This document shows, one piece after another, positions 14,790-62,990 of a DNA stretch of 64,000 bases (positions are counted from its first letter, which is position 1; each line of letters begins with the position of its first letter). Source of the DNA: Schmidtea polychroa (taxonomy: Eukaryota); assembly GCA_044892525.1 (NCBI GenBank), contig CM097885.1, positions 10,294,001 to 10,358,000 on the forward strand, in the 5' to 3' direction. The position numbers were made by a program, and so were the translations under genes. The notes beneath the pieces were generated by a model that did not search any database, was not told the DNA's origin, and saw only the letters and a list, made by a program, of their open reading frames with translations.

Positions 14790-16560
14790 AAGTTGTTATA
14801 TTACGTATGTCTTTAAAACCTGCAGCAAACTCTGATTTTATTATTTTCAAAGACTGTTCGCAAAGGTCATTTTTAACCAAAAATGGTGGTTTCAGTGTTT
14901 AACAGTTCTAGAAAGTGTATAAAATTTGACTGTTTCATTTGAGTGATGTTAATAAGTCTAGATTCAAACCCATTTACCTCCTTCATCATTGTTGACAATA
15001 TTTGATTTTGACCTTGAAATTTTATATTGAGCTTGCTAATATGATCCGTAATGTACGTTAGAAATGCCAGTTCTGCAATAAAAACAGGATTTTTAAGATG
15101 ATTTAACAATTCTACTTTGGATTTCATTCCTAGAAAATGTTTAATTTCATGCACCAAATTCCAAAATCATGTAAGCCAGCGAACATCTATATGTACAACT
15201 AAATCGTACTCTTCTAACACCAGAATAGTATGTAAGGACTCCAACCCACTTTCGAGGTCATCTCAATGTCCAGATCAAATATAGGTCAATTGAATCATTT
15301 TATTTTTTTTTAAAATTTTATTTAATTACTTCTATTTAATTTTTAATCTTATTAATTTAATTTTATTTTATTATGTTTTAATTTTAATTACTTAATTTAG
15401 TTAATTTTTAATTTATTACATTTAATTAATTTTTTTAGGTTTATCTCTTAATAAATTTTAATTATTATTAATATTATTATTATATTTATTTATTAATATT
15501 TTATTATTATTATTACTTCTTTTTATTATTATTATTATCTTACATTTACATTTAATATATTATAACAATAATATTTGAATTTTTACAAAATTTTAATTAG
15601 TAATTATTAGAATTATTATAAAATAAAGCTGTGTTAATTTTAAATAGAAAGGGCATTAATTTTTCAGAAAAAAAGTAATAATAATAATAAAATATTAATA
15701 AATAAATATAATAATAATATTAATAATAATTTAAATTTATTAAGAGATAAACCAAAACAAAATTAATTAAATAACGTAAGTAATTAAAATAAAATATTAA
15801 TAAAATAACTAATTAAATGTAATAAATAAAAAATTAACTTAAGTAAGTAATTAAAATTAGAACATAATAAAATAATTAATTAATAAAATTAAAAATTAAA
15901 TAGAAGTAATTAAATAAAATTTAAAAAAAAAATAAAATTATTCAATTGACCTAAATTTGATCTGGACATTGGGATGACCTTGAAAGTGTGTTGGAGTCCT
16001 TACATCATACTACTCACCAGCTTGAATTACTGGTGATTTAATAGATTTGCATAAATGAAGTTTACAATCTTTACAATCATGTTCAATATATTTTTAAATT
16101 CATTAATTTTCAGTTTAGAAAGAAGTGCTTGTTGGTGAATAATACAACGATAATCTTGGAAGTCTGGAAAATCTAAAACCGATGTGCTGTATCTCCATTA
16201 TATCTCCACCTCTTGTATTGTTCATGAATAAGAGTGCCAACAAATAAAGCAATACTAGTTTAAGTATATTGTTCAATTCCTATTGCTACAGTTTGACGAA
16301 ATAACTGAAGATCGCTTGTCTACTTCTTGATTTCATTTTTATTCTTAAACTCAGCAAACAACGAATCTGCACATTCTTGAAAACACAATTTTACCCTTTC
16401 ACTATTTGAATACGGTTTTTGTTATTCTGCAGCACAACGACTTGAATTTAAATAACACTGAAAAGGGTTTTTTGGTCTTGTTATCATATATGCCTGTATT
16501 TTATTTGGAGCAGTTGACTATGTTGTGGGTATTCACGGAGTTTTGATGTACATAAGCAAG
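14790..16560 (-). mobile_element. Degenerate hAT (SPIN/Charlie-like) transposase, interrupted by the 15224-16014 insertion
   Basis: RCIIHQQALL, DLVVHIDVRWLT and ELAFLTYITDHISKLNIKFQG motifs; the frame rejoins (FKLV|LEEYDL) when the insert and one TSD are removed. Confidence 0.85.
15224..16014. mobile_element. Non-autonomous foldback element with Polinton/Maverick-type ends
   Basis: Long imperfect inverted arms; termini AATAGTATGTAAGG / CCTTACATCATACTACT (revcomp AGTAGT...); 6-bp TSD CACCAG at 15218-15223 and 16015-16020. Confidence 0.75.
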
Positions 16561-17835: not shown

Positions 17836-18366
17836 AGAACCTTTTCAATTTTCACCACTGATTTCTATTAACTAATATTGTATTTATTACAACGCTTGAG
17901 TATGAATCAGTAAAGATATCGATGTTATTTTGATATTCACAAATTTTCGGCACTGCCGTTTTCAATGTATGCACAAAAATTTAAAAAATGACTATTTATT
18001 AATTTAATTTACATTAAAGTAATTTTGGTATGCCACTTCAAATCACTTCGCGGCCCGCGTGTTGGACAATACTGGTCTAAAATTTTCAATTATATTTTGT
18101 TTCTTTGCTAATCTTTAAGTGCGAAATTTTGACATAGATACAAGCATGAATTTTCTGAGTCGTTAAAACTTATTGGAATTTTTGAACTCGTATCCGTTTT
18201 CGAATTTTATTTTCGAATCTTAATCAAAAATAAAGCTATGATTAATTATTTTATTCCGATATTATTTCTTTTATCCCTTTTGTTTTTTATATCAGTTTTA
18301 TTTGAAAATGAATGCTGACCGCATAATTAAAATTTCTAATTGATGATTTATTTATAAACAATTTAT

Positions 18367-18776
18367 TTATACACAACTTATACACAATTTATACACAATT
18401 TATACACAATTTTTTACACAATTTATACACAATTTATACACAATTTATACACAATTTATACACAATTTATACACAATTTATACACAATTTATACACAATT
18501 TATACACAATTTATACACAATTTATACACAATTTATACACAATTTATATACAATTTATACACAATTTATACACAATTTATACACAATTTATATACAATTT
18601 ATATACAATTTATACACAATTTATACACAATTTATACACAATTTATAAACCATTTATACACAATTTATATACAATTTATACACAATTTATACACAATTTA
18701 TACACAATTTATACACAATTTATATACAATTTATACACAATTTCTACACAATTTATACACAATTTATACACAATTT
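18367..18776. repeat. 11-bp minisatellite (TTTATACACAA)n
   Basis: Over 30 tandem units with single-base variants. Confidence 0.95.
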
Positions 18777-20031: not shown

Positions 20032-20491
20032 TGTGAAATGTTTTCAGTTGAGAATTAAATATTTCAATGATTTATTAAGATAATTTTAAATGATTTAAAA
20101 TTTTAAAATTGAAAAATTAAATAAGCTTTTTAAAAGAAGTTTTTCAAGTAAATAATTTTTAAATAAATATATTTTAAATATCGAAATTTTAATAAATGGT
20201 TTTGAAAATATTTTATTCAACGTTGAAAATTTGTTTGAAAATTATGCAATATTTCATTAAATAAATTATGATGTTATGAATTATGACGTTATCTTTTGAA
20301 CCTGATTTAAAAATTAATTTTGAAGATGCGTTAGCAGCTTCTAATAATAATAATATAAGAACTTCTTCCATTTTCACCACTGATTTCTTTTCCATTCACA
20401 TTTATTTATTAAAAACTTGACTATGAATCAGTAAGTATATCGATGTTTTTTGTATCTTTACGGATTAATAGTCAAGTTTTTAAATAAATTC

Positions 20492-21418: not shown

Positions 21419-21982
21419 CTATACCATACTATTATATATATATAAGGGTGTTTGAATAAGTTCAAGAAATGGTATAACAATTTTATTCTCCTCCAAAGGG
21501 GCACGTGGATCAGTTTTGAATAATAACCGTTTGTCCATTTCAATATCATAAGATAATGCCATCATTGAACAACCTAGTGGTCGCATCTCAGCCGATTGGG
21601 AATAGAGTTGATCAATATCCGCAATAGAAGAACATATTATATCCCAAGGCATTTCATGTCCAATTTTGGATTCAAATCGAGCTGCTTCCACTTGTGCACG
21701 ATAAACTTGAGATCGACAATCAGGGATCATACCAATCATAACACCTCCAGTACTTTCAGTAATATTAAACAATCTTGTAGCTGAACTCGTCTCAATCATT
21801 TTATCGGGAACTTTTCCTTTTGCATATCTATCGATTTCATTAAGCCAATTTTTAACATTGTTAAACGAATCTTGATCGGTAACATCAAACACAACAATAA
21901 TTCCATGAGCTCCTCTGTAATAAGACGAGGTTATAGTTCTAAATCTTGCTTGATCTGCTGTATCCCATATTCGCAATTTCAT
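21419..21982 (-). pseudogene. Intronless chimeric ORF: Rab1 fragment fused in frame to a proteasome alpha-6 (PSMA6-type) fragment
   Basis: aa1-54 [53 protein letters not shown] is Rab1; aa57-159 KVPDK...[14 protein letters not shown]...[19 protein letters not shown]...FKTDP is PSMA6-like. Confidence 0.9.
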
Positions 21983-22329
21983 TGTATCACAAAAAACTTC
22001 CCACTTCCAGAATTCTATCGATTCAAAAATTCCACCCAGAAAAACCAGAAATCAAATCAAATCTAATCAATAAATCACATTATAAATCTACTTCTCGCGT
22101 CTGTGTGCGCACACCAACAAGAATCGGTCGAACCAGACCGCGCACACAGACGCGATAGAAAAAACGCTAAACGAACTGCCAGTCAGAGGCAATCCCCCTC
22201 TGACTGGTCGAAACAGTGTTTATAAAGTAATTTCGATATTTCCCGACAAAGGACCTAATTGTATTTTTTCACAGACAATTTCATACTTAAGCCATATAAT
22301 CATTATATATTTTGACAGGAGATCGTATT

Positions 22330-30384: not shown

Positions 30385-33300
30385 GTGTAAAAAAACCAAA
30401 AGAATAAATAATTTGCATATTATCAAAGATTTTATTTTGTTTATTCTTTCTGGAGTTTTTTCAATAAATATGGTATTGTGGATTTGCCATAACTAAGAGA
30501 ACTTTGGATAACAAGGTTCTGTAAAAACAGCATAAAGAAAGAATCAGACACGTTGGATGTAATGTGCGTCTTCTGATTTCTGTTTGGACAATAACAAGAA
30601 GCAGTGCTGTGCTTGAACAACGATATGGTAGCAAATAAAAGCTTTCTCATTACAAAATAGAATTCACCTTCATTGAATCCAATTCAAGAGCCAGAAAAAT
30701 TCCCGAAATCATTGTAACTTGTGAACTCAATTTGAACATTTGAAAAATACTCAATGGCATTCGAATAATAGGACGACATTTGTAAAATCCAAAAACCAGA
30801 AATATTGAAAACAAAATTAGTAGCTTCTTTTTTTTGAGAATTTCAATTTCGACAAAGCGTAGTAAATTATAAAACTCAAAATTACAAAATTACCAAAGCT
30901 ATATATAAGACCTACTACAATATCTATTCAATATTTAAACAAACATTTTTTTAATTCTAACATGAATTAATTTAACACCCAAATTTTGTCGAATCATCCT
31001 ACAAAGAATCCAAACAATTGGGCTGCCAATCGTTATATTTATCATGGTTCAAATTTTGATCCAAGGTAGATAACTAATAAATTCACTATAAACCGAGGAG
31101 CTAAAATAGCTATTTTCTGTCATGATTGGCAAAATGATTAATGAAATATAAACGGAATTGTCAGATGAATATTTATAAATGAGCCTTATTGAAGGCAGAA
31201 TTATATTTTGGAATTGCTCAAGCGATATCACATAAGCTCGAAACTTTGAGATTTTATGGATTCAGAGATCGAAACTAGAACAATTAACTTGAAGCAATTT
31301 AATGAATGAAACTGCTAAGGAAGAATCGATTAAATTCTCTCTGTCCTGCAATGGATCTGCTGTGTTCTCGACTGATGGATAATGAAGAAAAACTAAGGGT
31401 TTTCTGTAGCATTCATAATGCTTGGAATGTCGTCATAATTCAGAACCCAACAATACACTTTCGGAAGAAAGACGATTGTAAATAATGATGAAAACTGAAA
31501 TTCCAAATTCGAATTGAGACATAGAAAAATTGTATCAATTATTAACAATAAATCAAATTCCAAAGTCAAATTCAAAAAAACTATTTACAAAAAACTTTTA
31601 ATAATATATTTAAATGTTTATTTTACAAAATTTTTTAATTTATCACAAAAACTTTATTTTTTTTTGTTTTATATTTTTTATGAAAAAGTAAAACTTTTTA
31701 GCCCTGAAAATATTATGGTGGAAAAAATTAAACTAATTTGAAGAATATAATACTTATTTATATAGTTAATGAAATAAAAACATTAAAAATGTTTTCGTTA
31801 ATATTTATTAATTTTCGAATAATAAATATTCATCATAAAATCTCCTCTAGGGTTATTTTGGAATTTTTATAGAGGTTTTCAGCACTGAGTTCAGAAATAA
31901 ACGGTGACTGTAATATGGCGACCATTTTATTAGCTAATTTTGCAATACAAACCAATTTTGAAGTTATTATTTTGTAATGATTAAAATAATTTTTAAAAAA
32001 TTTTATTATTTACTAATAATAGTTTACCTAATTGAATTTTCCATAAAAATATCATATCTAAGATCAATGTTCAGATCAAATGATTCAGATCAAAAATGAT
32101 AAGATTAAATGATTTTGTTAAAAATAAATATTAAATTGCATTTAAATAATTGCATAAACATTTTACAAATAAAAATAAAAATATTTAAATTAAATGGCTA
32201 AATTACAAATAACTTCTATTGACTTGTATTGTATGACAATTAAACACACTACAAAAATGTGTTAGAACAAAATCGGATTTACCAAGTTACACAAACCAGC
32301 AATTGATATGCATTTAAATGACATTGATTTCGCTTTTCACAATATTAATATTAACTTACCTATAATAAATTTGTGTATGTGTGTGTATCACAGCCAGAAC
32401 TGATATTGAATTAGCTTCGTTACATTAAATAGGCTCTTACACTATAGAAAGATAGAAAAAAATTGATGATAGAAGAAAAATAAATAAATACACACAAACA
32501 TGGTTCACAACATTTCTATAACAAAAAATACACACAATTGGACATTGAGTAAGCTTCCTGACACTTAATAAGCTTTAAATATTCAATATATTGGATGGTT
32601 CTTTGAAATTAATTATTTCCAGCTCAAGAAATCCATAGAAATGTGTAGTTTCTTATTAAACTTTAGTTAATTTATAAAACCTTTCTATAGAATAACCATA
32701 GATGATAAAATAAGATTATTGACAAAATAGAAAATAGGCCATATTCTTGGAATCAAAAAGAAAACAGTTACGTGTTAAAATAAAATATAGAAAGACTCTA
32801 ATTTAATAAATAAATTAAATAAAAAATGACTTACTTTTTTATCATAAAATCTTAAAGATAATTTAAAATAGTTATATTAAATGAAAGAAATAAGAATAAA
32901 TCCTTTAACATACATAAAATTTAACATAAAATTTTATATTAGTATTAAAACCAAAGCAAAGCTCAATTGATTTATCTTATTTAATGCCAATATAATGATT
33001 ATCAATTGCGCTTTGGTGTATTATGGATTTCGACAAAAAACTTTAATGGATGTATTTTCTGTAAGGGATGTATCTTATTTCAATTTTGACTGTTTGTTTT
33101 AGTATATTTCAGTGACTAGCAATCTTTGTGAAGTTTGTACCTCGCTCTAACCCCACGTGCTCTTTAGTTAAATTAAAACAATGGCATCCAATAGAATAGA
33201 ATTAATTTTATTTAACCACAATTTTAATAATACTGTCAGGAATGCTTTTACTTTTATTTGCACCTTAAATAAAAGTGTTAAGGTAGGTATTTCCAAGGAA

Positions 33301-34884: not shown

Positions 34885-35137
34885 TGTATCGACTAATTTT
34901 TTAGTTCGCAGAGGTGATTATGATTTTTCATACGCGATGTTTACAAGTTTACATATTTTCTGTGACCAAGCTAATAAGCAAGAGGTGTGATTCTCAGTAT
35001 ACCAGGAAAAGTATGCTATAAAGCTGAATCAGCAATATTTTATACTTACCTGGCGCGAAGAGAAATCTTCGCGTCTCCTGCATTGTACCGATGAGAGGCA
35101 GAAGCTCGAAACTAGTCTACCACTGGAATTTGCACTG
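34885..35137 (+). mobile_element. U1-headed hammerhead repeat, copy 1 (core mutated)
   Basis: 157-bp flank shared with copy 5; ATACTTACCTGGCG at 35042; hairpin CGCGAAGA-GAAA-TCTTCGCG; core CCGATGA...GAAACTAGTC. Confidence 0.85.
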
Positions 35138-37510: not shown

Positions 37511-38154
37511 CGCTATTCTCTCTCAAAAATACCATTTATCTTACCGACAGAAATGATTGTAAAATTTCCCGAAAAATTTCTACTATGAAAATTCTAAATT
37601 CTAATTAAAAATACCAAAAAATATTTCAGAATTGATGATTCTAAATTTTTGTGCAAAACTGTGATTCTGTAAATTGTTTGATCTTAATTAAAAGTTCTAG
37701 ACAGAAATTTTTCTATCGGGAGTTTTCGGATAATTGATCATTTAGGTTTATAAATCAGTAGTAATTATGATAAAATTCAGGCCCCCATTCTACAATTGTC
37801 TTTGTAGAGATTTTCATTTTTGTAATTAAATTACTACATTTTATACGTATTGGTTATATGGAAGTATTTTTAATTAATTTGTTTTCATTTTGTAATTTCT
37901 TCGTCTTTATTTAAAATTACTCGATTAAAACAAAATCTCAATAATTATAGAAAATATATAATACTTACCTAATATTTTTTTTCTTTCAAACTCAAGAAAT
38001 ATAATAACAAGTTACAGAAAAAATTTAAGATATTAGATTTTAGAATAAAAATACAATTTAACTATTACATTATAATATCAATTTCTTTATTTTTATTTGA
38101 TAGGACAATAAATTATTATTTAAAACCAATTTTCGGTGAAATGTTTATAAAGTT

Positions 38155-38308
38155 TACCAGGGAAAGTATGCAATAAAGTTGAATCATCAATATTGTATAC
38201 TTACCTGGCGTGATGAGAAATCTTCGCGTCTACCGCATAGTACTGATGAGAGCCAAAAGCTCGAAACTTGTCAACTATTGGGATTTGTACTGGGTATCAA
38301 AAAGCTTT
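38155..38308 (+). mobile_element. U1-headed hammerhead repeat, copy 2
   Basis: ATACTTACCTGGCG at 38197; CTGATGA (38243) GAGC-CAAAA-GCTC GAAA CTTG TC; followed closely by (TTA)n. Confidence 0.88.
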
Positions 38309-38333
38309 TGTTGCTTATATTATCTTATTATTA

Positions 38334-40240: not shown

Positions 40241-41190
40241 ACACCTAATTCCGAAATTTAGTAACTTCTATAATCTAAAGAAAATCAATAAATTTATAGT
40301 ATAGGAGCACACAAACTTACCTGTGTGTAGAAATTTATTGTTCCGAAATTTAATAACTTTATTATATGATTTGTTAAGGTGAGAGAAAAATAATTGAACC
40401 AACACAAAACACATAATGAAAACGCATGCAAATTTATTATAGCTTTTTTTGTTCCGAAATAAATAACCATTAACATATTGTTAACATATTGTTAAAATAT
40501 AATTATTTTGAAATTATTAAAATATTTTGTAGGAAAATACTTTTAATTTAGAATACGACAGCTCTACCTTAAGCTTCAGAGAAAAAGAAGAAAATACATC
40601 ATAAAATTCAATTATAAAATAATTTAGAATATAAACTCTTTAGATTTACAGATATTTCTCAGGATACCTTGCCTTTTCGCGAAGGTGGAAATCTGACAAT
40701 GTAAGATTTATTCATTAAATTACAAAACAGAAAGAAATTCACAATTCGTAAATTTAAATAAATTATTTCATTATTTCATTATAAAAATTATAAAATTCAG
40801 CCTTTCCCTCTTTCCTAATTATATTAAAAAATCAATGTCTTCGGTGATTAGTTAATTTTATATCTAACTTACATTTTATTGAAATAATTCCAAATAAATT
40901 CATAAAATGTCAAAATTCCTAAAATACACATGAAATTTATTTATCAATATGTTATATTATAAATGCTGAATAACAGTAATATTTAAGAACTTGAATAATG
41001 ATCTCATAATTATAAAATCAAAATTCAAGTCTTAAAGTTACCTGAAATTAAAAAAATTACCTGAAAACCATTTTTAAGAAATTGAATAAATGAAATTGAG
41101 TAACTTATTTTCACGTAAATGGTGACTCACCTCAACTGGTGTGCACACCAACGTGAATTATAGAGGTTATTAAATTTCGGAATTGGGTGT
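40241..41190. mobile_element. Tc1/pogo-type MITE
   Basis: Imperfect TIRs CACC(T/C)AATTCCGAAATTTA(G/A)TAAC(T/C)TCTATAAT flanked by TA. Confidence 0.6.
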
Positions 41191-41454
41191 ATAACAACAT
41201 GTAAGATAATAACAACGGTCAAAATACAACACGGTTTATAATATGTTGTACAATAATGTATGAATATAAACTGCAAACATTTACAAAATAATCATTATTT
41301 TCCATTCGAAACAAAGTTTTTTAAATCTAAAATAGTACTTTTTAGTAAATGTATAAATATTTTCGATCAGTAAATGTATGAATATTTTTACATACAACAT
41401 TATATAATAACTTGTGATCACTAGTCATCGTAGATTGTGCCATGTCCGTTCTGT

Positions 41455-41880
41455 AAATTACATTATAATAGTCATAACCTTCATAAATTGCCATAGTATG
41501 CGATACACCATCCACAGAATCCGGAACGATACCCTTTGTACGATAAGACACATACAAAAAAGGAACTGCTTGAATAGTAACATACATAGCAGCAACATTG
41601 AATGTTTCAAAAATAATTTGAGTCATTTTTTCTCTGTTAGGTCTGGGATTCAATGGCACTTCATTAAGAAAAACTGGATGTTCATTTGGCGCAAGATTCA
41701 ATTCATTGTAAAATGCATGATGCCTGCTTTCTTTTATAATTCCAGTTCGAACCAATGTTGTGTTCAATTGGAAATTTCAACGTTAAAATACATCCCTTAG
41801 ACTGATTTTTATCATCAACGTAGTTCTCCTTTTAACCCATACCAATCATAACTCCTTGATGTCTTAATCGATCAACAATT
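41455..41880 (-). pseudogene. Actin pseudogene fragment (about residues 34-170)
   Basis: RHQGVMIGMG*K...[10 protein letters not shown], then [42 protein letters not shown]...[12 protein letters not shown]; stop and frameshift; no introns. Confidence 0.92.
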
Positions 41881-48669: not shown

Positions 48670-49400
48670 AATATTTATGCACCAAAGATCAGCGCTTCCA
48701 TACTTACAGAAAGTACATGTCATAAGAAACGAGAAACGAAGAATAGCCAATCGATGCACTGAAAAAAACGAAAAATTTAAAGAACAATCAAATTTCAATA
48801 AAATCCTACACAGAAACGGATACCAAAGTGAGGACATTGAAAGAATGAATTCTACCCCAAAAAAATCTAGAGAATTAACACAAAATAATCAGAAATATTT
48901 CTATCTGAATATCCCATTCATCAGTGACATACTAGACTTCAAGATCCTGAAAGAACTTAAACATACCGGTCTTCCAATTCGGATAGCACATAAATCTTGG
49001 ACATTGAGAAGGGCTCTGACAGGCAACATAAATAGAGAAAACAAATTGCACAATGGAAAACTGCCAGACACCGAAAGATGTGTGCTTTAAAAAAAACATC
49101 GTCTATTACATCACATACAATGTATGCAATGAAATCTACATTGGAAGTACCCTCAGGACCTTGCACCAAATAGTTAAAGAACATTTAGATTCTGGTGGAA
49201 CATCCTCGATAAACAGACATCTCCAACAATGTCAACCAACAGAGGAAAGAAAAAATATTTCAATCGACATAGTAACCAATGGAAACATTCAAAAAAAATG
49301 TCAGATTCAAAGAAGCAATTCTCATCATAAACAGACGGCCAAAAATCAACACTAAAGAAGAAATCAATGAAATCATCAATTTTATCTGTTGTCATTGACC
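48670..49400 (+). mobile_element. 5'-truncated Penelope-like element (RT thumb/linker plus GIY-YIG), frameshifted
   Basis: ILHRNGY, LNIPFISD, C..KNIVYYITYNVCNEIYIGSTLRTLHQIVKEH, then RFKEAILINRRPKIN in another frame. Confidence 0.88.
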
Positions 49401-50060: not shown

Positions 50061-51878
50061 TCATAATTACATAACGACAGTAATGGGGATCAAAAGTATT
50101 CCTTGTCAAATTTATTACATAAACCTTTATCTTTTGAAGTAGAATCAGTTTTATTTTAATTATAAAACTGAGCAATACTTAAATTTTATTAAGTGCATAA
50201 TTTGAAATTTATTTTCTTTCTTTGATCTATAGACAAGCAATTAAAACTTTGCGTTTTGCTAATTTTTTGTGTCAAACAGGAAATAAACTCCGATTACTCT
50301 ACTTTATACCATTGAAATAATTTCTATAGGAATTACCCATAATGGCAATATTCAATTGAAATTTTGGGAAATATTAGTTCATTTTTCAAATAGAGAAGTT
50401 GACTACGTAGGATTTCTTTGAGTTGAAATCAAATCAGAGAAAGTAAGTCAAAATTGTTCTCCAAGGGTTTTTAACAATAAACCTACAAAGTTGCAGTAAA
50501 AAAGGATGTAATAAATCTTTATTTCGACCATAGATGAATTTTGTTTTCTCATTAAACACAAATTTTCAGCACTGCACTTTCAAGTCAAATCAGATAATAA
50601 TCCACTTGATAAATGCACTGCTGTGAATATGTTGATTTATAGTCGAAATGAAGATAAAAAAATTTAGAAAATAGAATTAAATCATAGGTAAACAAAAATA
50701 TGAATATCAATAAATAAATCAGTAAAAAATCAATTCATACAAATCAATATAAATGATAATAGATCAATAAATTTCTTAAGGATATCCATAAAAATTTATT
50801 TTAATCAAGAGTGATTTAATGTTTTTTTGACAAAGGAAAAAATATTTTAATTAATACCTAACAAAAGTATTTTTTTGATGTTTTCTATGCAAGAAAAAAG
50901 TCAGTGTCCACAGATGCAGAGAAAGGAAGTCGAATGTTATGCGTGTGGTACCTCAGGATACGTGAGAAGAGATTGTCAAAAGGTGTAAAAGGTGTAGCTT
51001 GGGTGGTTATAAAGACGTAGATTGTTACACAAATTTGGAGAGAATGAGATATCGGAGAATCAATGAGAATTTTGGTAGATAACAATAACGATACGAAGCA
51101 GGGAATGGTTATCAAGTAACGAGAAAGGAGACAAGACAAGCAGACAAGGGATTAGTAGCATTCATAGACGAACCAATCGATGAAAGAATAGAAAATAAAT
51201 ACAGAGAATACCCAAATATCAACGCCCCGATAGAAAAGAGATAGTAGGGGCAATGTATTAAATAGCGATGCTGACTCCCAAATTATTATAATAAAAGTAG
51301 AATATAATGTATTATAGAGAAAGATGTGAAAGACACAGAGGTAACGGAAGAGGATAATAATGTAATATGGAAAGTAAACAGATTAATAAAAAAGGATTTT
51401 GCAGAGAGAGAAAGAGAAAAAATACAAATACTCACATTAGATGAATGGAAAAATGATATTATTAGTTTTGATAACATGCAAGGCCGACCAAGTGTAACTA
51501 TTAGAATACAAGGAAATAAAACGTTAAAGACGAAAACGTTTTTCAAAAATTAAGTGTGGGAGGGGGTCCCTAAGTAAAGGTATTACAAAAATTAAAAAAT
51601 AATTAATTATGCAAATAAGTCAGTGATAATCCCATAACGAAAACAAGATTGACAAAAACAGTAGCGAGCGTCAAATTAGTTTCAAATCAGGAACTATTAA
51701 TCACTCATCAACTTTGTCTCAGGAATCACTGGTACAAAATAATTTCCCAATAATTCCCCATTAAGTATAATCCAAATTGTGAGGAATTTAGTTCCTAATT
51801 TCTGTGTATACAATTTGGAATAAAAGCGGGAAGGAAAATCACAAACCAAATAAAGATTTAGAAGAATACTATAAACAT

Positions 51879-51963
51879 TACAAGCTTTGTCATACCCAGT
51901 GCAAATCCCAATAGTAGACTAGTTTCGAGCTTTTGGCTCTCATCAGTACTGTGCAGGAGACGC
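51879..51963 (-). ncRNA. U1-headed repeat copy 3 (5'-truncated) with an intact type I hammerhead ribozyme
   Basis: Minus strand: CAGTA CTGATGA GAGC CAAAA GCTC GAAA CTAG TC TACTAT; complete core, stem II, palindromic ACTAGT stem III, GUC triplet, stem I AGTA/TACT. Confidence 0.9.
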
Positions 51964-52582
51964 AAATGTAAATTGTAAAAGGGCACAATTTAAACAGTCC
52001 TTATAACAAAATACAAGATATACAACGACTGAGAAAACATTATTTTTGCTAAAATAGCACTAGTCAACAATGATATAATCTGAATGTGGAATCTTTTTTT
52101 AAAAATGCGTTTAGTTATTAATATTGTTTTAATAATGGAAATTAAACATACAAATATGTGGTTCCATTATAATGTCGTACAATTTGATAATTTATGTTGA
52201 GATCGTAATTTGCAATTTATTTTCATTCTATTTCGTTTTTATATTCTCGTAATAATACATTTATAACCCCTCCATCAGTAATTTGTCGAGATTGGATTTT
52301 ATTGTCCTGGTTGTTTTAATAAATTGATGAAGTAATTCTCTTATGTAATTTATGTAATTTATGTAATTTCTCTTATGTTCTCTTATGTTTTAGGGATATT
52401 AATATAGTTATAACGAGCCATGGGAATTGGTCTTTTGTCATGGGACAAATTAGGTATTATTGGTGATGATATTCTTAGGCCTGCATCAATTTTATTTAAT
52501 TGAAATAATTAATTGACTTCAGCTAAACAAAATTATCAGAGTTTCAGAGGATTTTGTTAATTAAACTTTAATAATAAAAATG

Positions 52583-55877: not shown

Positions 55878-55970
<93 letters not shown>

Positions 55971-55971
<1 letters not shown>

Positions 55972-56152
55972 TTCTCTTCGCGCCAGGTAAGTATACAATA
56001 TTGTTGATTCAACTCTATTGCATACTTTCCCCGGTACACTGGAAATCACATCGCTTGAAATTAGCTTGGTCCTAGAAAAAATCTGTAAACTTGTAAACAT
56101 GGCGTATGAAAAATCATAATCACCTCTGAAGACAAAAAAATTAGTCGATACA
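55971..56152 (-). mobile_element. U1-headed repeat copy 5 (flank plus U1 head, ending at a microsatellite)
   Basis: Revcomp of ATACTTACCTGGCGCGAAGAGAAA at 55971-55994 plus ~158 bp flank matching copy 1. Confidence 0.88.
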
Positions 56153-56257
56153 CAGAAACTGTTTACAAGTGCATCCGATTACCTTTAGCGTTTTTAACTT
56201 ATAAAGTAACGGTGTAAAATTTTTTTGTCGGATGTCTCACTTGAATAAAATCAACAG

Positions 56258-56463
56258 TACAAGCATTGTGATACCCAGTGCAAATCCCAATAGTAGACTA
56301 GTTTCAGTACTATGCGGTAGACGCGAAGATTTCTTTTCGTGCCAGTTATGTATACAATATTGCTGATTCAACTCTATTGCATACTTTCCCTGGTACACTG
56401 GAAATCACATCGCTTGAAATTAGCTTGATCACAGAAAAAATCTGTAAACTAGTAAACATGGCG
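56258..56463 (-). mobile_element. U1-headed repeat copy 4 (hammerhead stem II deleted, U1 head mutated)
   Basis: Minus strand ...GCATAGTACTGAAACTAGTCTACTATTGGG: 18 nt lost between CTGA and AAC; head reads ATACATAACTGGC. Confidence 0.85.
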
Positions 56464-56784
56464 AAACATGTAAAATTAGGAAGTCGTATCATTATTGTTC
56501 ATTTAATTGTGAAAGAATAATTTAATTAAAAAGTAGATGCCGATAATTTATAATTTTTTACGAAAATAATTTCAATATTATTAAAAAATATTTTCTAAAG
56601 AAATTCTACAAATTGAATTCAAATTGATCTCTATATTAACAGCCAAGATAAATTTTGTTAGATATTAGAAAATCTAGACAAATAAGTACTGTTTAATTCT
56701 CATCGAAATTTGAAATAAAGTTGAGATGTGTATTCGAACAACGACACCAGGAACCACATGTCGAACCACATATTAAGGCTGTAT

Positions 56785-61942: not shown

Positions 61943-62386
61943 ATTATTATTATTATTATTATTATTATTACTGTTATTATTACTATTGTGAGGCTGTAAA
62001 ATGTGAAAAGTATTAATGTTCAAATGATTACTAATATGACGCTCATTCAATTAAAGTGTTATTTTGTTTTAATAAACTAAAAAGTACATGTAAGGAATAA
62101 GTTAAATAAACCTAAACTTAATTAATTAACTAATTTAAATATTGTATATTAATTAATTTAGAATTTAATAAGTATGGTATGTAAATAATAATTGTATAGA
62201 TCATATTAATAATTCAAATGTAAGTATAATTATAATATAATTATATAATTTAAATTAATAGAATGATTGTAAAATGATCTTTTCTTGCTCCAGATATTAT
62301 TGGTGTAAAATAATCCTCTTGTTTGAATTTTGTGAATCAGAATAAATATTTGAAATTCGAATCTTTAATTAATTTAAATGGATACT

Positions 62387-62990
62387 GTGAGGTGTTTTCA
62401 GCTGAGAATTAAATATTTCAATATTTTATTAAGACAATTTTAAATGATAATTAATTGACTATTTGAAATAACTTTTAAAAACATTTTTAAATTGGATTTT
62501 TTAAATTGAAATTTTTAAATTTTTAAATTAAACAAGCTTTTATTAGTAAATCATTTTTAAATAAATATATTTTAAATATGTAGATTTTAATAAATGGTTT
62601 TTAAAATATTTTATTCAACGCTGAAAATTTGTTTGGAAATTATACAATATTTCATTAAAGAAATACTTGGAATTATGACGTTAACTTTGCACCGGATTTA
62701 AAAAATAATTTAGAAGATGTGTTAGCAGCTTCGAATAGATACAATTAATACTTGATTCACACAGTCTAGCAGTACATATCTGAGGGTTAATAATAACGTT
62801 GAGTTGTTGGAAAGTCTCATTTGTCACTGCATTTTTCACAGGCTTCACAAAAGGAGCAATATGACGAAACTTGTGAAAAATTGTATGTTGTGTTGGCTCA
62901 TTAACTGCCAATGCTAGCACATTTCTCTTATTGTTCAAACATTACAAAGATTGGGATTCATTCTACATATATGCAATCGGATAACAGGTA
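62387..62990 (-). repeat. Dispersed repeat also present at ~20032-20345
   Basis: ~310-350 bp of clear alignment between the two loci, sharing the same left end; class not identified. Confidence 0.7.

What the first reader, a model, noticed from the sequence alone, without database searches (positions are those of the whole stretch)
55971..56463. Head-to-tail dimer defines a ~360-380 bp monomer that carries its own upstream flank
Seen: equivalent positions in copies 4 and 5 are 360 bp apart (about 378 after restoring the 18-nt deletion), so 56153-56257 is probably the rest of the unit. Established: tandem partial multimers are typical of retrozymes copied from circular RNA. Inference: ribozyme-to-ribozyme monomers would include the next unit's upstream flank, letting an external snRNA-type promoter survive retrotransposition.
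Basis: partly seen in the sequence, partly recalled or inferred. Interest (0 to 1): 0.72.

Follow-up and report, generated by a model that had tools for sequence, protein, structure and literature searches.

The report
U1-headed self-cleaving repeat in a flatworm
This is a broken copy of a very abundant 377-base jumping repeat that carries a self-cutting RNA motif and begins like the cell's U1 splicing RNA, and each repeat unit does include the stretch just upstream of that U1-like start, although nothing yet shows that this stretch acts as a promoter.

Summary
The monomer claim holds. Copies 4 and 5 lie 359 bp apart (377 with the 18-nt deletion). The spacer (56153-56243) is repeat DNA: its summed contig depth is at least 2,700 times that of unique flank, and divergent contigs from three studies join it to the ribozyme tail or to the next flank. 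On the minus strand the unit runs flank, a head matching the first 16 nt of planarian U1 snRNA, a hairpin, a type I hammerhead with palindromic stem III, and a tail. The cleavage-to-cleavage RNA folds strongly (z -5.05), with the tail pairing to the next unit's flank. This locus is dead: about 1.3 units, no intact ribozyme. The family works like a non-LTR retrozyme, probably moved by Penelope-like enzymes. The promoter is not shown: the proximal flank also pairs with the U1-like head and the tail, so RNA structure alone could explain its conservation. Promoter survival through tandem units is already known (newt satellite 2, Sm-alpha, Penelope). A U1-derived head in such an element was not found in ten literature searches.

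The parts
56354..56463 (-). Copy 4 upstream flank, 5'-truncated at -110
   Evidence: 92.6% to copy 5; junction with unique DNA bridged by contigs in X1 and X5 (records 8 and 24)
56335..56353 (-). Copy 4 U1-like head, decayed (4 changes against copy 5)
   Evidence: most contig depth carries the intact letters at 56335, 56340, 56346 and 56349
56320..56343 (-). GC-rich hairpin after the head (10 bp in intact copies)
   Evidence: fold of copies 1 and 2; pair counts (no compensatory change)
56279..56316 (-). Type I hammerhead remnant; 18-nt deletion removes most of the core and stem II; predicted cleavage after 56296
   Evidence: alignment to copies 1-3; deleted form at single-locus depth, intact letters as loose ends in 114 X1, 67 X5 and 13 X7 contigs
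56244..56295 (-). Tail, 52 nt after the cleavage site; about 56282-56261 pairs with the next unit's flank; frequent 3' end of other copies near 56244
   Evidence: 41 X1 contigs leave at 56244 into TAA-rich letters
56153..56243 (-). Spacer, 91 nt: the remainder of the monomer
   Evidence: high summed depth and bridging divergent contigs; single copy in the window
55995..56152 (-). Copy 5 upstream flank, 158 nt (candidate promoter). About -64 to -42 pairs with the tail, -45 to -27 pairs with the head, -63 to -84 varies between subfamilies
55971..55994 (-). Copy 5 intact U1-like head and half hairpin; 3' end of the insertion at +24
   Evidence: first 16 nt identical to Schmidtea mediterranea U1A1, 18 of 19 to U1B1
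55880..55970 (-). (TTA)n array abutting the 3' end: likely target site
34885..35137 (+). Copy 1: -157 to +96, core changed (CCGAUGA)
38151..38318 (+). Copy 2: -46 to +122, core intact, stem III palindrome broken, followed by (TTA)n
51864..51966 (-). Copy 3: ribozyme with intact core and palindromic stem III, plus tail; no head
   Evidence: weak Rfam Hammerhead_HH9 match, 20.3 bits, E 0.84, far below the cutoff of 52

Best explanation
The locus is a dead, partial-tandem insertion of an abundant non-coding retroelement family with a 377-nt unit that works like a non-LTR retrozyme. SHOWN in sequence: unit length and order, the U1-identical head, the hammerhead anatomy, high abundance, strong self-pairing, and 3' ends next to (TTA)n. 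INFERRED: (1) master loci with two or more units are transcribed, most likely from the U1-like +1 with the flank serving as an snRNA-type Pol II promoter. (2) The hammerheads cut at +76, working as dimers because stem III is a 2-bp stem on a palindrome. This releases a 76-nt leader and 377-nt monomers in the order tail, spacer, flank, head. (3) Monomers probably ligate into self-paired circles in which the flank pairs with both the tail and the U1-like head. (4) A Penelope-like reverse transcriptase/endonuclease nicks ATT-rich DNA, primes inside the RNA (often about 50 nt past the cut site) and copies back across the junction. New copies therefore have the flank in front of the head again; long copying runs give partial tandems such as this one.
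For: Unit and spacer. Hammerhead core with 4-bp stem II and palindromic stem III in copy 3, matching the published description of metazoan type I motifs (PMC4209133 passages). GC 36% and a size within the 150-450 bp range given for such repeats. Fold: z -5.05, 0 of 100 shuffles; natural 359-nt unit folded as a circle z -4.34, 0 of 40. Only 1 of 132 background tiles in the window scored below -5, an 11-bp minisatellite. Tail-flank duplex: 0 of 300 shuffles as low for copy 4, 3 of 300 for copy 3. U1 identity: 16 of 16 nt to U1A1, about 5e-8 by chance within one unit; nt 12-16, outside the splice-site-pairing part, 2e-4. All four insertions span the cut site, and three carry flank directly before the head. 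Two of four 3' ends abut (TTA)n, P about 4e-5, computed after the fact. A Poseidon-type enzyme is reported to nick ATT and to prime internally, 3' of its hammerhead (PMC11167929 passages). Copies 4 and 5 share the same letter at 3 of 3 checked family-polymorphic sites, as one insertion event would give. Organism B contigs cover about -63 to +21 and the ribozyme region.
Against: No test of promoter activity, cleavage or circles was possible. No flatworm PSE consensus was found; schistosome snRNA promoters are described as highly derived. The Drosophila core ATTC-CAA is matched at only 5 of 7 positions by eye, in a part of the flank that varies between subfamilies and differs in copy 1. The proximal flank is complementary to the head (0, 9 and 0 of 300 shuffles for copies 5, 1 and 2), which an ordinary U1 promoter has no need to be. 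No compensatory base change was seen in 4 copies. The copy 2 tail duplex is not significant (55 of 300). The folding z depends on register: -0.6 to -5.4 across nine 326-nt windows, and flank-head-tail registers also reach -4.7; the antisense strand also folds (z -2.9 to -3.4). No array with two intact ribozymes was seen. The partner enzyme is unidentified: the nearby GIY-YIG fragment is below the Pfam cutoff and found no homologue. Rfam finds neither U1 nor a hammerhead at gathering score.
Confidence: 0.5

Rival explanations
1. Same retrozyme-like family and monomer, but the flank is not a promoter. A 16-19-nt U1 fragment was captured once, for example by a template switch, and is kept because it forms one arm of a hairpin in the monomer RNA. 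Transcription comes from read-through or from a promoter elsewhere in the unit.
For: The conserved proximal flank is fully accounted for by pairing with the head and the tail. The -63 to -84 region varies. SINEU elements have U1 heads and no recognisable promoter.
Against: The U1 match begins exactly at U1 nucleotide 1, as expected if the start site came with its upstream DNA, though a full-length copy of the RNA 5' end would give the same. One organism B contig aligns from -62 to +14 and has 140 further letters that do not fit (record 11), as a true U1 gene with a similar upstream region would; its letters could not be read.
Confidence: 0.3
2. A non-autonomous Penelope-like element copied from uncleaved multimeric RNA, or spread as DNA (satellite or extrachromosomal circles), with no circular RNA stage and a ribozyme that is weak or dispensable.
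For: Partial tandems and tails are standard for Penelope-like insertions. Unprocessed RNA was the dominant substrate for one such enzyme in vitro. Only 1 of 9 Xenopus retrozyme dimers cleaved in vitro. Insertions that span the cut site fit multimers as well as circles.
Against: The tail-to-next-flank helix and the low circular folding energy suit a discrete monomer, although a multimer can form the same helix. Loose ends at the deletion show the intact stem II letters in many contigs.
Confidence: 0.14
3. The U1-like motif is not from U1. It is the complement of a consensus 5' splice site, or a by-product of an inverted duplication that formed the hairpin.
For: The first 11 nt are the complement of a perfect 5' splice site (general knowledge), and the flank holds a near-complementary arm.
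Against: Identity to planarian U1 continues for 5-8 nt beyond the splice-site part, and those bases are not paired with that arm beyond nt 12.
Confidence: 0.04
4. Two independent insertions or a local duplication separated by unique DNA.
For: The spacer has no second copy in the window, and copies 1-3 end near its edges.
Against: Spacer depth is thousands of times that of unique DNA in two DNA-like runs, and divergent contigs bridge both boundaries.
Confidence: 0.02

Closest known systems
Metazoan non-LTR retrozymes (PMC7229834; bioRxiv 10.64898/2026.07.22.740005)
   Same: Type I hammerhead in a non-coding, low-GC unit of a few hundred bases, found head to tail; self-paired predicted monomer; proposed dependence on Penelope-like elements.
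   Different: The unit carries a U1-identical 5' end. The word searches of the NAR paper found no promoter or snRNA discussion beyond T7 constructs and a reference. This locus has no two intact ribozymes, and circles are not shown.
Newt satellite 2 (Coats et al. 1994, seen only as cited in PMC2220036)
   Different: There the promoter was reported as functional; here it is untested. A U1-derived transcribed head is not mentioned in the passages seen. Sequence homology was not tested.
Schistosoma Sm-alpha elements (review PMC6765202)
   Same: Flatworm hammerhead repeat whose promoter ends up at the 3' end of the cleaved monomer, so tandem copies are needed to propagate.
   Different: Sm-alpha uses Pol III and is tRNA-related; here the head is U1-like and no tRNA gene was found.
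SINEU of crocodilians (PMC4494074)
   Same: Short retroposon with U1-derived sequence.
   Different: SINEU has no recognisable promoter and its transcription is an open question; the paper names a ribozyme only in a reference. Here only 16-19 nt of U1 are present, upstream DNA travels inside the unit, and a hammerhead follows.
Penelope-like element pseudo-LTRs (PMC4209133, PMC8557442, PMC11167929)
   Same: Palindromic stem III hammerhead, partial tandem, 5' truncation, tail past the ribozyme, ATT-rich targets.
   Different: No reverse transcriptase frame: the ATG in the ribozyme core closes after 17 codons in copy 3, and ORFs over the unit are short or run into the microsatellite.

Membership tests
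Non-LTR retrozyme | Type I hammerhead in the unit | tested here: met
   Complete core, stems I-III in copy 3; intact letters in many contigs. Below Rfam cutoff.
Non-LTR retrozyme | Head-to-tail unit of about 150-450 bp | tested here: met
   377 nt; junctions bridged in other loci.
Non-LTR retrozyme | Non-coding, GC under 45% | tested here: met
   GC 36%.
Non-LTR retrozyme | [quoted passage not shown] | tested here: not met
   Copy 4 deleted, copy 5 truncated. The locus is therefore not filed as an active retrozyme.
Non-LTR retrozyme | Such two-ribozyme arrays elsewhere in the genome | tested here: inconclusive
   No genome held; no listed contig piece spans a whole unit.
Non-LTR retrozyme | Self-cleavage and circular monomer RNA | not testable with these tools
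   Only contigs were available, and RNA status was a guess.
Newt satellite 2-like snRNA-promoter repeat | Functional PSE (and distal element) upstream of the start | tested here: inconclusive
   No flatworm consensus; weak, unconserved match to the Drosophila core by eye.
SINEU | Head derived from U1 or U2 | tested here: met
   16 of 16 and 18 of 19 nt to planarian U1 variants; short.
SINEU | Element begins at the snRNA-derived head, without its own upstream sequence | tested here: not met
   Three of four insertions carry 46-157 nt of conserved flank before the head.
SINEU | Tail shared with a partner LINE; target-site duplication | not tested
   No partner sequence available; no duplication obvious at the junctions printed.
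U1 snRNA gene or variant | Full U1 fold with stem-loops I-IV and Sm site | tested here: not met
   No Rfam U1 match at gathering score or at E up to 10; similarity ends by nt 16-19.
Autonomous Penelope-like element | RT plus GIY-YIG reading frame | tested here: not met

The most novel reading that the evidence does not exclude
A retrozyme family has taken over the promoter and first 16-19 nt of a U1 gene. The same DNA is read twice: as an snRNA promoter in the genome, and as the RNA strand that masks the U1 splice-site-pairing sequence inside the circular monomer. Each new transcript would release a 76-nt capped leader with a free U1 5' end and no Sm site, while the circle carries the external promoter to new sites. 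This would be a worked answer to how an snRNA-headed retroposon can keep a promoter that lies outside its transcript, the question left open for SINEU.
Probability: 0.3. Interest if true: 0.75.

Novelty: new variant of a known kind. Interest (0 to 1): 0.5.

Why it matters
Non-LTR retrozymes are known, but how most of them are transcribed is not addressed in the parts of the papers read here. A very abundant family whose unit contains an exact U1 5' end marks a candidate start site to the base, which makes the promoter question directly testable in a planarian-type animal. If the start is used, cells would make many RNAs that begin with the U1 sequence that recognises 5' splice sites, and the masking helix suggests selection to hide it in the monomer. 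If the promoter fails the test, this is an ordinary new retrozyme family with a captured U1 fragment.

Tried and rejected
Own genome: not held, so no genome-wide count of arrays or comparison with native snRNA promoters. Rfam: 0 matches at gathering score. Metagenome scan for a U1 head followed by a hammerhead core: 110 loci, none related to the element (best BLAST matches 14-26 nt, E 0.024 or worse); read as chance. Ribozyme pattern in viral and prokaryote contigs: 0 and 0. No RNA holder listed; run X7 is only guessed to be RNA, so its coverage is not used as evidence of expression. Organism B lacks depth over 56072-56146 and 56197-56246, which proves nothing; one of its contigs is identical to copy 5 over 87 nt and may be carry-over. 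Covariation on 4 copies: none. A hammerhead-like 11-mer at 31230 is not a remnant. The nearby GIY-YIG fragment gave no structure or homologue. The frame check was one base off and was redone. The fall of depth from the ribozyme region towards the far end of the spacer fits 5' truncation from a start near 56244 but is only a weak hint. Earlier-findings look-ups by sequence, relatives and words found nothing on this family. Literature searches without a report of a U1-headed hammerhead element or a planarian retrozyme; the library lacks most subscription papers, and repeat databases were not searchable. The original newt promoter paper is not held. Supplements of the 2026 preprint were not seen and may list invertebrate families.

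Full report
Setting. The window is about 25% GC with many (TTA)n and (AT)n arrays. A hairpin at 40980-41039 scores 55.4 bits against mir-753, below the cutoff of 62; I recall that family as planarian. The repeat head matches Schmidtea mediterranea U1, and earlier unchecked notes on this genome call it flatworm-like. I treat the host as planarian-like by inference. No whole genome is held.

Observation. BLAST of the region against the window finds five copies in four insertions: 34885-35137(+), 38151-38323(+), 51864-51966(-) and the pair 56243-56463(-) / 55970-56152(-). The pair matches at 125 of 135 positions at offset 359 and at 35-40 of 135 at neighbouring offsets. Copy 4 lacks 18 nt present in copies 1-3, so the unit is 377 nt. 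The part unmatched within the window is 56153-56243.

Is the spacer part of the unit? Contigs of four public runs from four studies were laid on 55972-56720 at 80% likeness: 9,235, 4,045, 283 and 28 records. In X1 the bins inside the spacer have summed depth 0.61-1.15 million against 223.7 in unique flank, at least 2,700-fold; in X5 at least 5,000-fold. The tool states that this is no copy number, so I read it only as 'very abundant'. Of 32 pieces shown (13,820 not shown), 4 bridge tail to spacer (X1 r7, X5 r23, X7 r28, r31) and 11 bridge spacer to flank (X1 r3-6, X5 r19-22, X7 r26, r28, r30). They carry 8-37 other letters, while the X1 record of this locus itself has 0, so most come from other loci. 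X7 r28 crosses both boundaries. The deleted ribozyme form sits at single-locus depth (315.8 in X1, 27.8 in X5), and 114, 67 and 13 contigs show the intact stem II letters as loose ends.

Anatomy (RNA sense, minus strand here). Flank; head at +1; a 10-bp GC-rich hairpin; a type I hammerhead with an interrupted stem I, a 4-bp stem II with a 5-nt loop and a 2-bp stem III on the palindrome ACUAGU; predicted cut at +76; tail (hammerhead numbering from general knowledge). Passages of PMC4209133 describe this as the usual metazoan type I form, which needs a second copy to be active. Only copy 3 has core and palindrome intact. A cut-to-cut monomer is tail 52, spacer 91, flank 158, head and 5' ribozyme half 76, so it does contain the next unit's flank.

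The head. Supplement 8 of PMC6312358 (part 2 of 3 read) lists 11 S. mediterranea U1 variants. By eye, the head equals U1A1 for 16 nt and U1B1 at 18 of 19; the other nine match less well at the 5' end. A 19-nt U1B1 motif hits copies 1, 2 and 5 with one mismatch each, with 0 hits in 100 shuffles. The chance of a given 16-mer in one unit is about 5e-8, and of nt 12-16 alone 2e-4. Most contig depth carries the intact head where copy 4 has decayed. The similarity stops there; Rfam sees no U1.

RNA structure. The stretch from the cut site to the end of copy 5 folds at -90 kcal/mol, z -5.05, 0 of 100 shuffles. The natural 359-nt unit as a circle gives z -4.34, its antisense -2.93. Among 132 background tiles (14 start points skipped for simple repeats) only a minisatellite scored below -5. 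The z varies with register from -0.6 to -5.4 and is lowest for the cut-site start. Two helices matter. The tail pairs with the flank at about -64 to -42: 0 of 300 shuffles as low for copy 4, 3 of 300 for copy 3, 55 of 300 for copy 2. In a cut monomer or circle this partner is the next unit's flank. The head pairs with -45 to -27 in all three intact heads (0, 9 and 0 of 300). No compensatory change appears among four copies. These helices support the monomer, and they also weaken the promoter argument, because they explain why the proximal flank is conserved.

Insertion pattern. The four insertions run -157 to +96, -46 to +122, the ribozyme to 53 nt past the cut, and -110 to +24 of the next unit. 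All cross the cut site, so the template was a circle or an uncleaved multimer, or the copying was at DNA level. Three have flank directly before the head, which a transcript started at +1 of a single unit could not supply. Two 3' ends abut (TTA)n (2 of 14 arrays; P about 4e-5 after the fact), and 41 X1 contigs leave the unit at 56244 into TAA-rich letters. Passages of PMC11167929 report that a Poseidon enzyme nicks ATT, primes inside its RNA downstream of the hammerhead, and uses mainly unprocessed RNA. That is an analogy; the partner here is not identified.

Promoter. Evidence is indirect: the U1 match starts at nucleotide 1; organism B contigs cover about -63 to +21; one of them fits from -62 to +14 and has 140 further unlike letters, as a true U1 gene would, but its letters were not shown and it may be a truncated copy. 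Against: no flatworm PSE is available, the match to the Drosophila core is weak (compared by eye), and the -63 to -84 region varies. I put promoter function at roughly even odds.

Comparison with what is known. Non-LTR retrozymes: PMC7229834 (passages and Discussion) and the 2026 preprint (parts 1-3 of 5; supplements not seen). The need for tandem copies to restore a promoter is stated for Sm-alpha and Penelope elements in PMC6765202 (passages). The newt snRNA-type promoter is cited in PMC2220036 (passages); the original is not held. SINEU has U1/U2 heads and no known promoter (PMC4494074 passages). Passages of PMC8557442, PMC2770079, PMC11410931, PMC5786205, PMC8490949 and PMC1761439 were also seen; none showed this family. 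Ten searches found no U1-headed hammerhead element, within a library that lacks most subscription papers and all repeat databases.

Verdict. Observation confirmed with corrections. The family works like a non-LTR retrozyme; this locus is an inactive 1.3-unit copy and fails the two-ribozyme criterion. The general mechanism is known; the U1-derived head, and its masking by the candidate promoter region, appear to be new. New variant of a known kind; interest 0.5.

Noticed in passing
window 21419-22051 (-): One open frame joins a Rab/Ras fragment (PF00071, E 1e-20) to a proteasome subunit fragment (PF00227, E 2e-17); looks like a chimera of captured gene pieces.
   Followed up: no
window 41342-41776 (-): Actin fragment (PF00022, E 3e-21), probably a pseudogene piece.
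   Followed up: no
window 40980-41039 (-): mir-753/bantam-like hairpin, 55.4 bits against a cutoff of 62.
   Followed up: no
window 48671-49400 (+): Frame-broken ORF pieces with a weak GIY-YIG match (E 0.008, below cutoff), possibly a decayed Penelope-like 3' end; no homologue found.
   Followed up: partly
window 15230-16005: Inverted repeat with 208-nt arms at 85%, MITE-like.
   Followed up: no
window 20032-20341 and 62386-62732: A second dispersed repeat family (76%); the first copy abuts an (AAT)n array.
   Followed up: no
window 18365-18776: Minisatellite of 37 copies of an 11-bp unit whose minus strand folds with z about -9.
   Followed up: no
window 55981-56056, run X20 record 11: A contig of a second organism fits from -62 to +14 of the head at 84% and has 140 further unlike letters; it could be a true U1 gene with a related upstream region.
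   Followed up: partly
PMC6312358 supplement 8: Neighbouring S. mediterranea U1 genes start 425-437 bp apart on two scaffolds, close to the 377-nt unit length; the unit might descend from one U1 gene repeat. Speculative.
   Followed up: no
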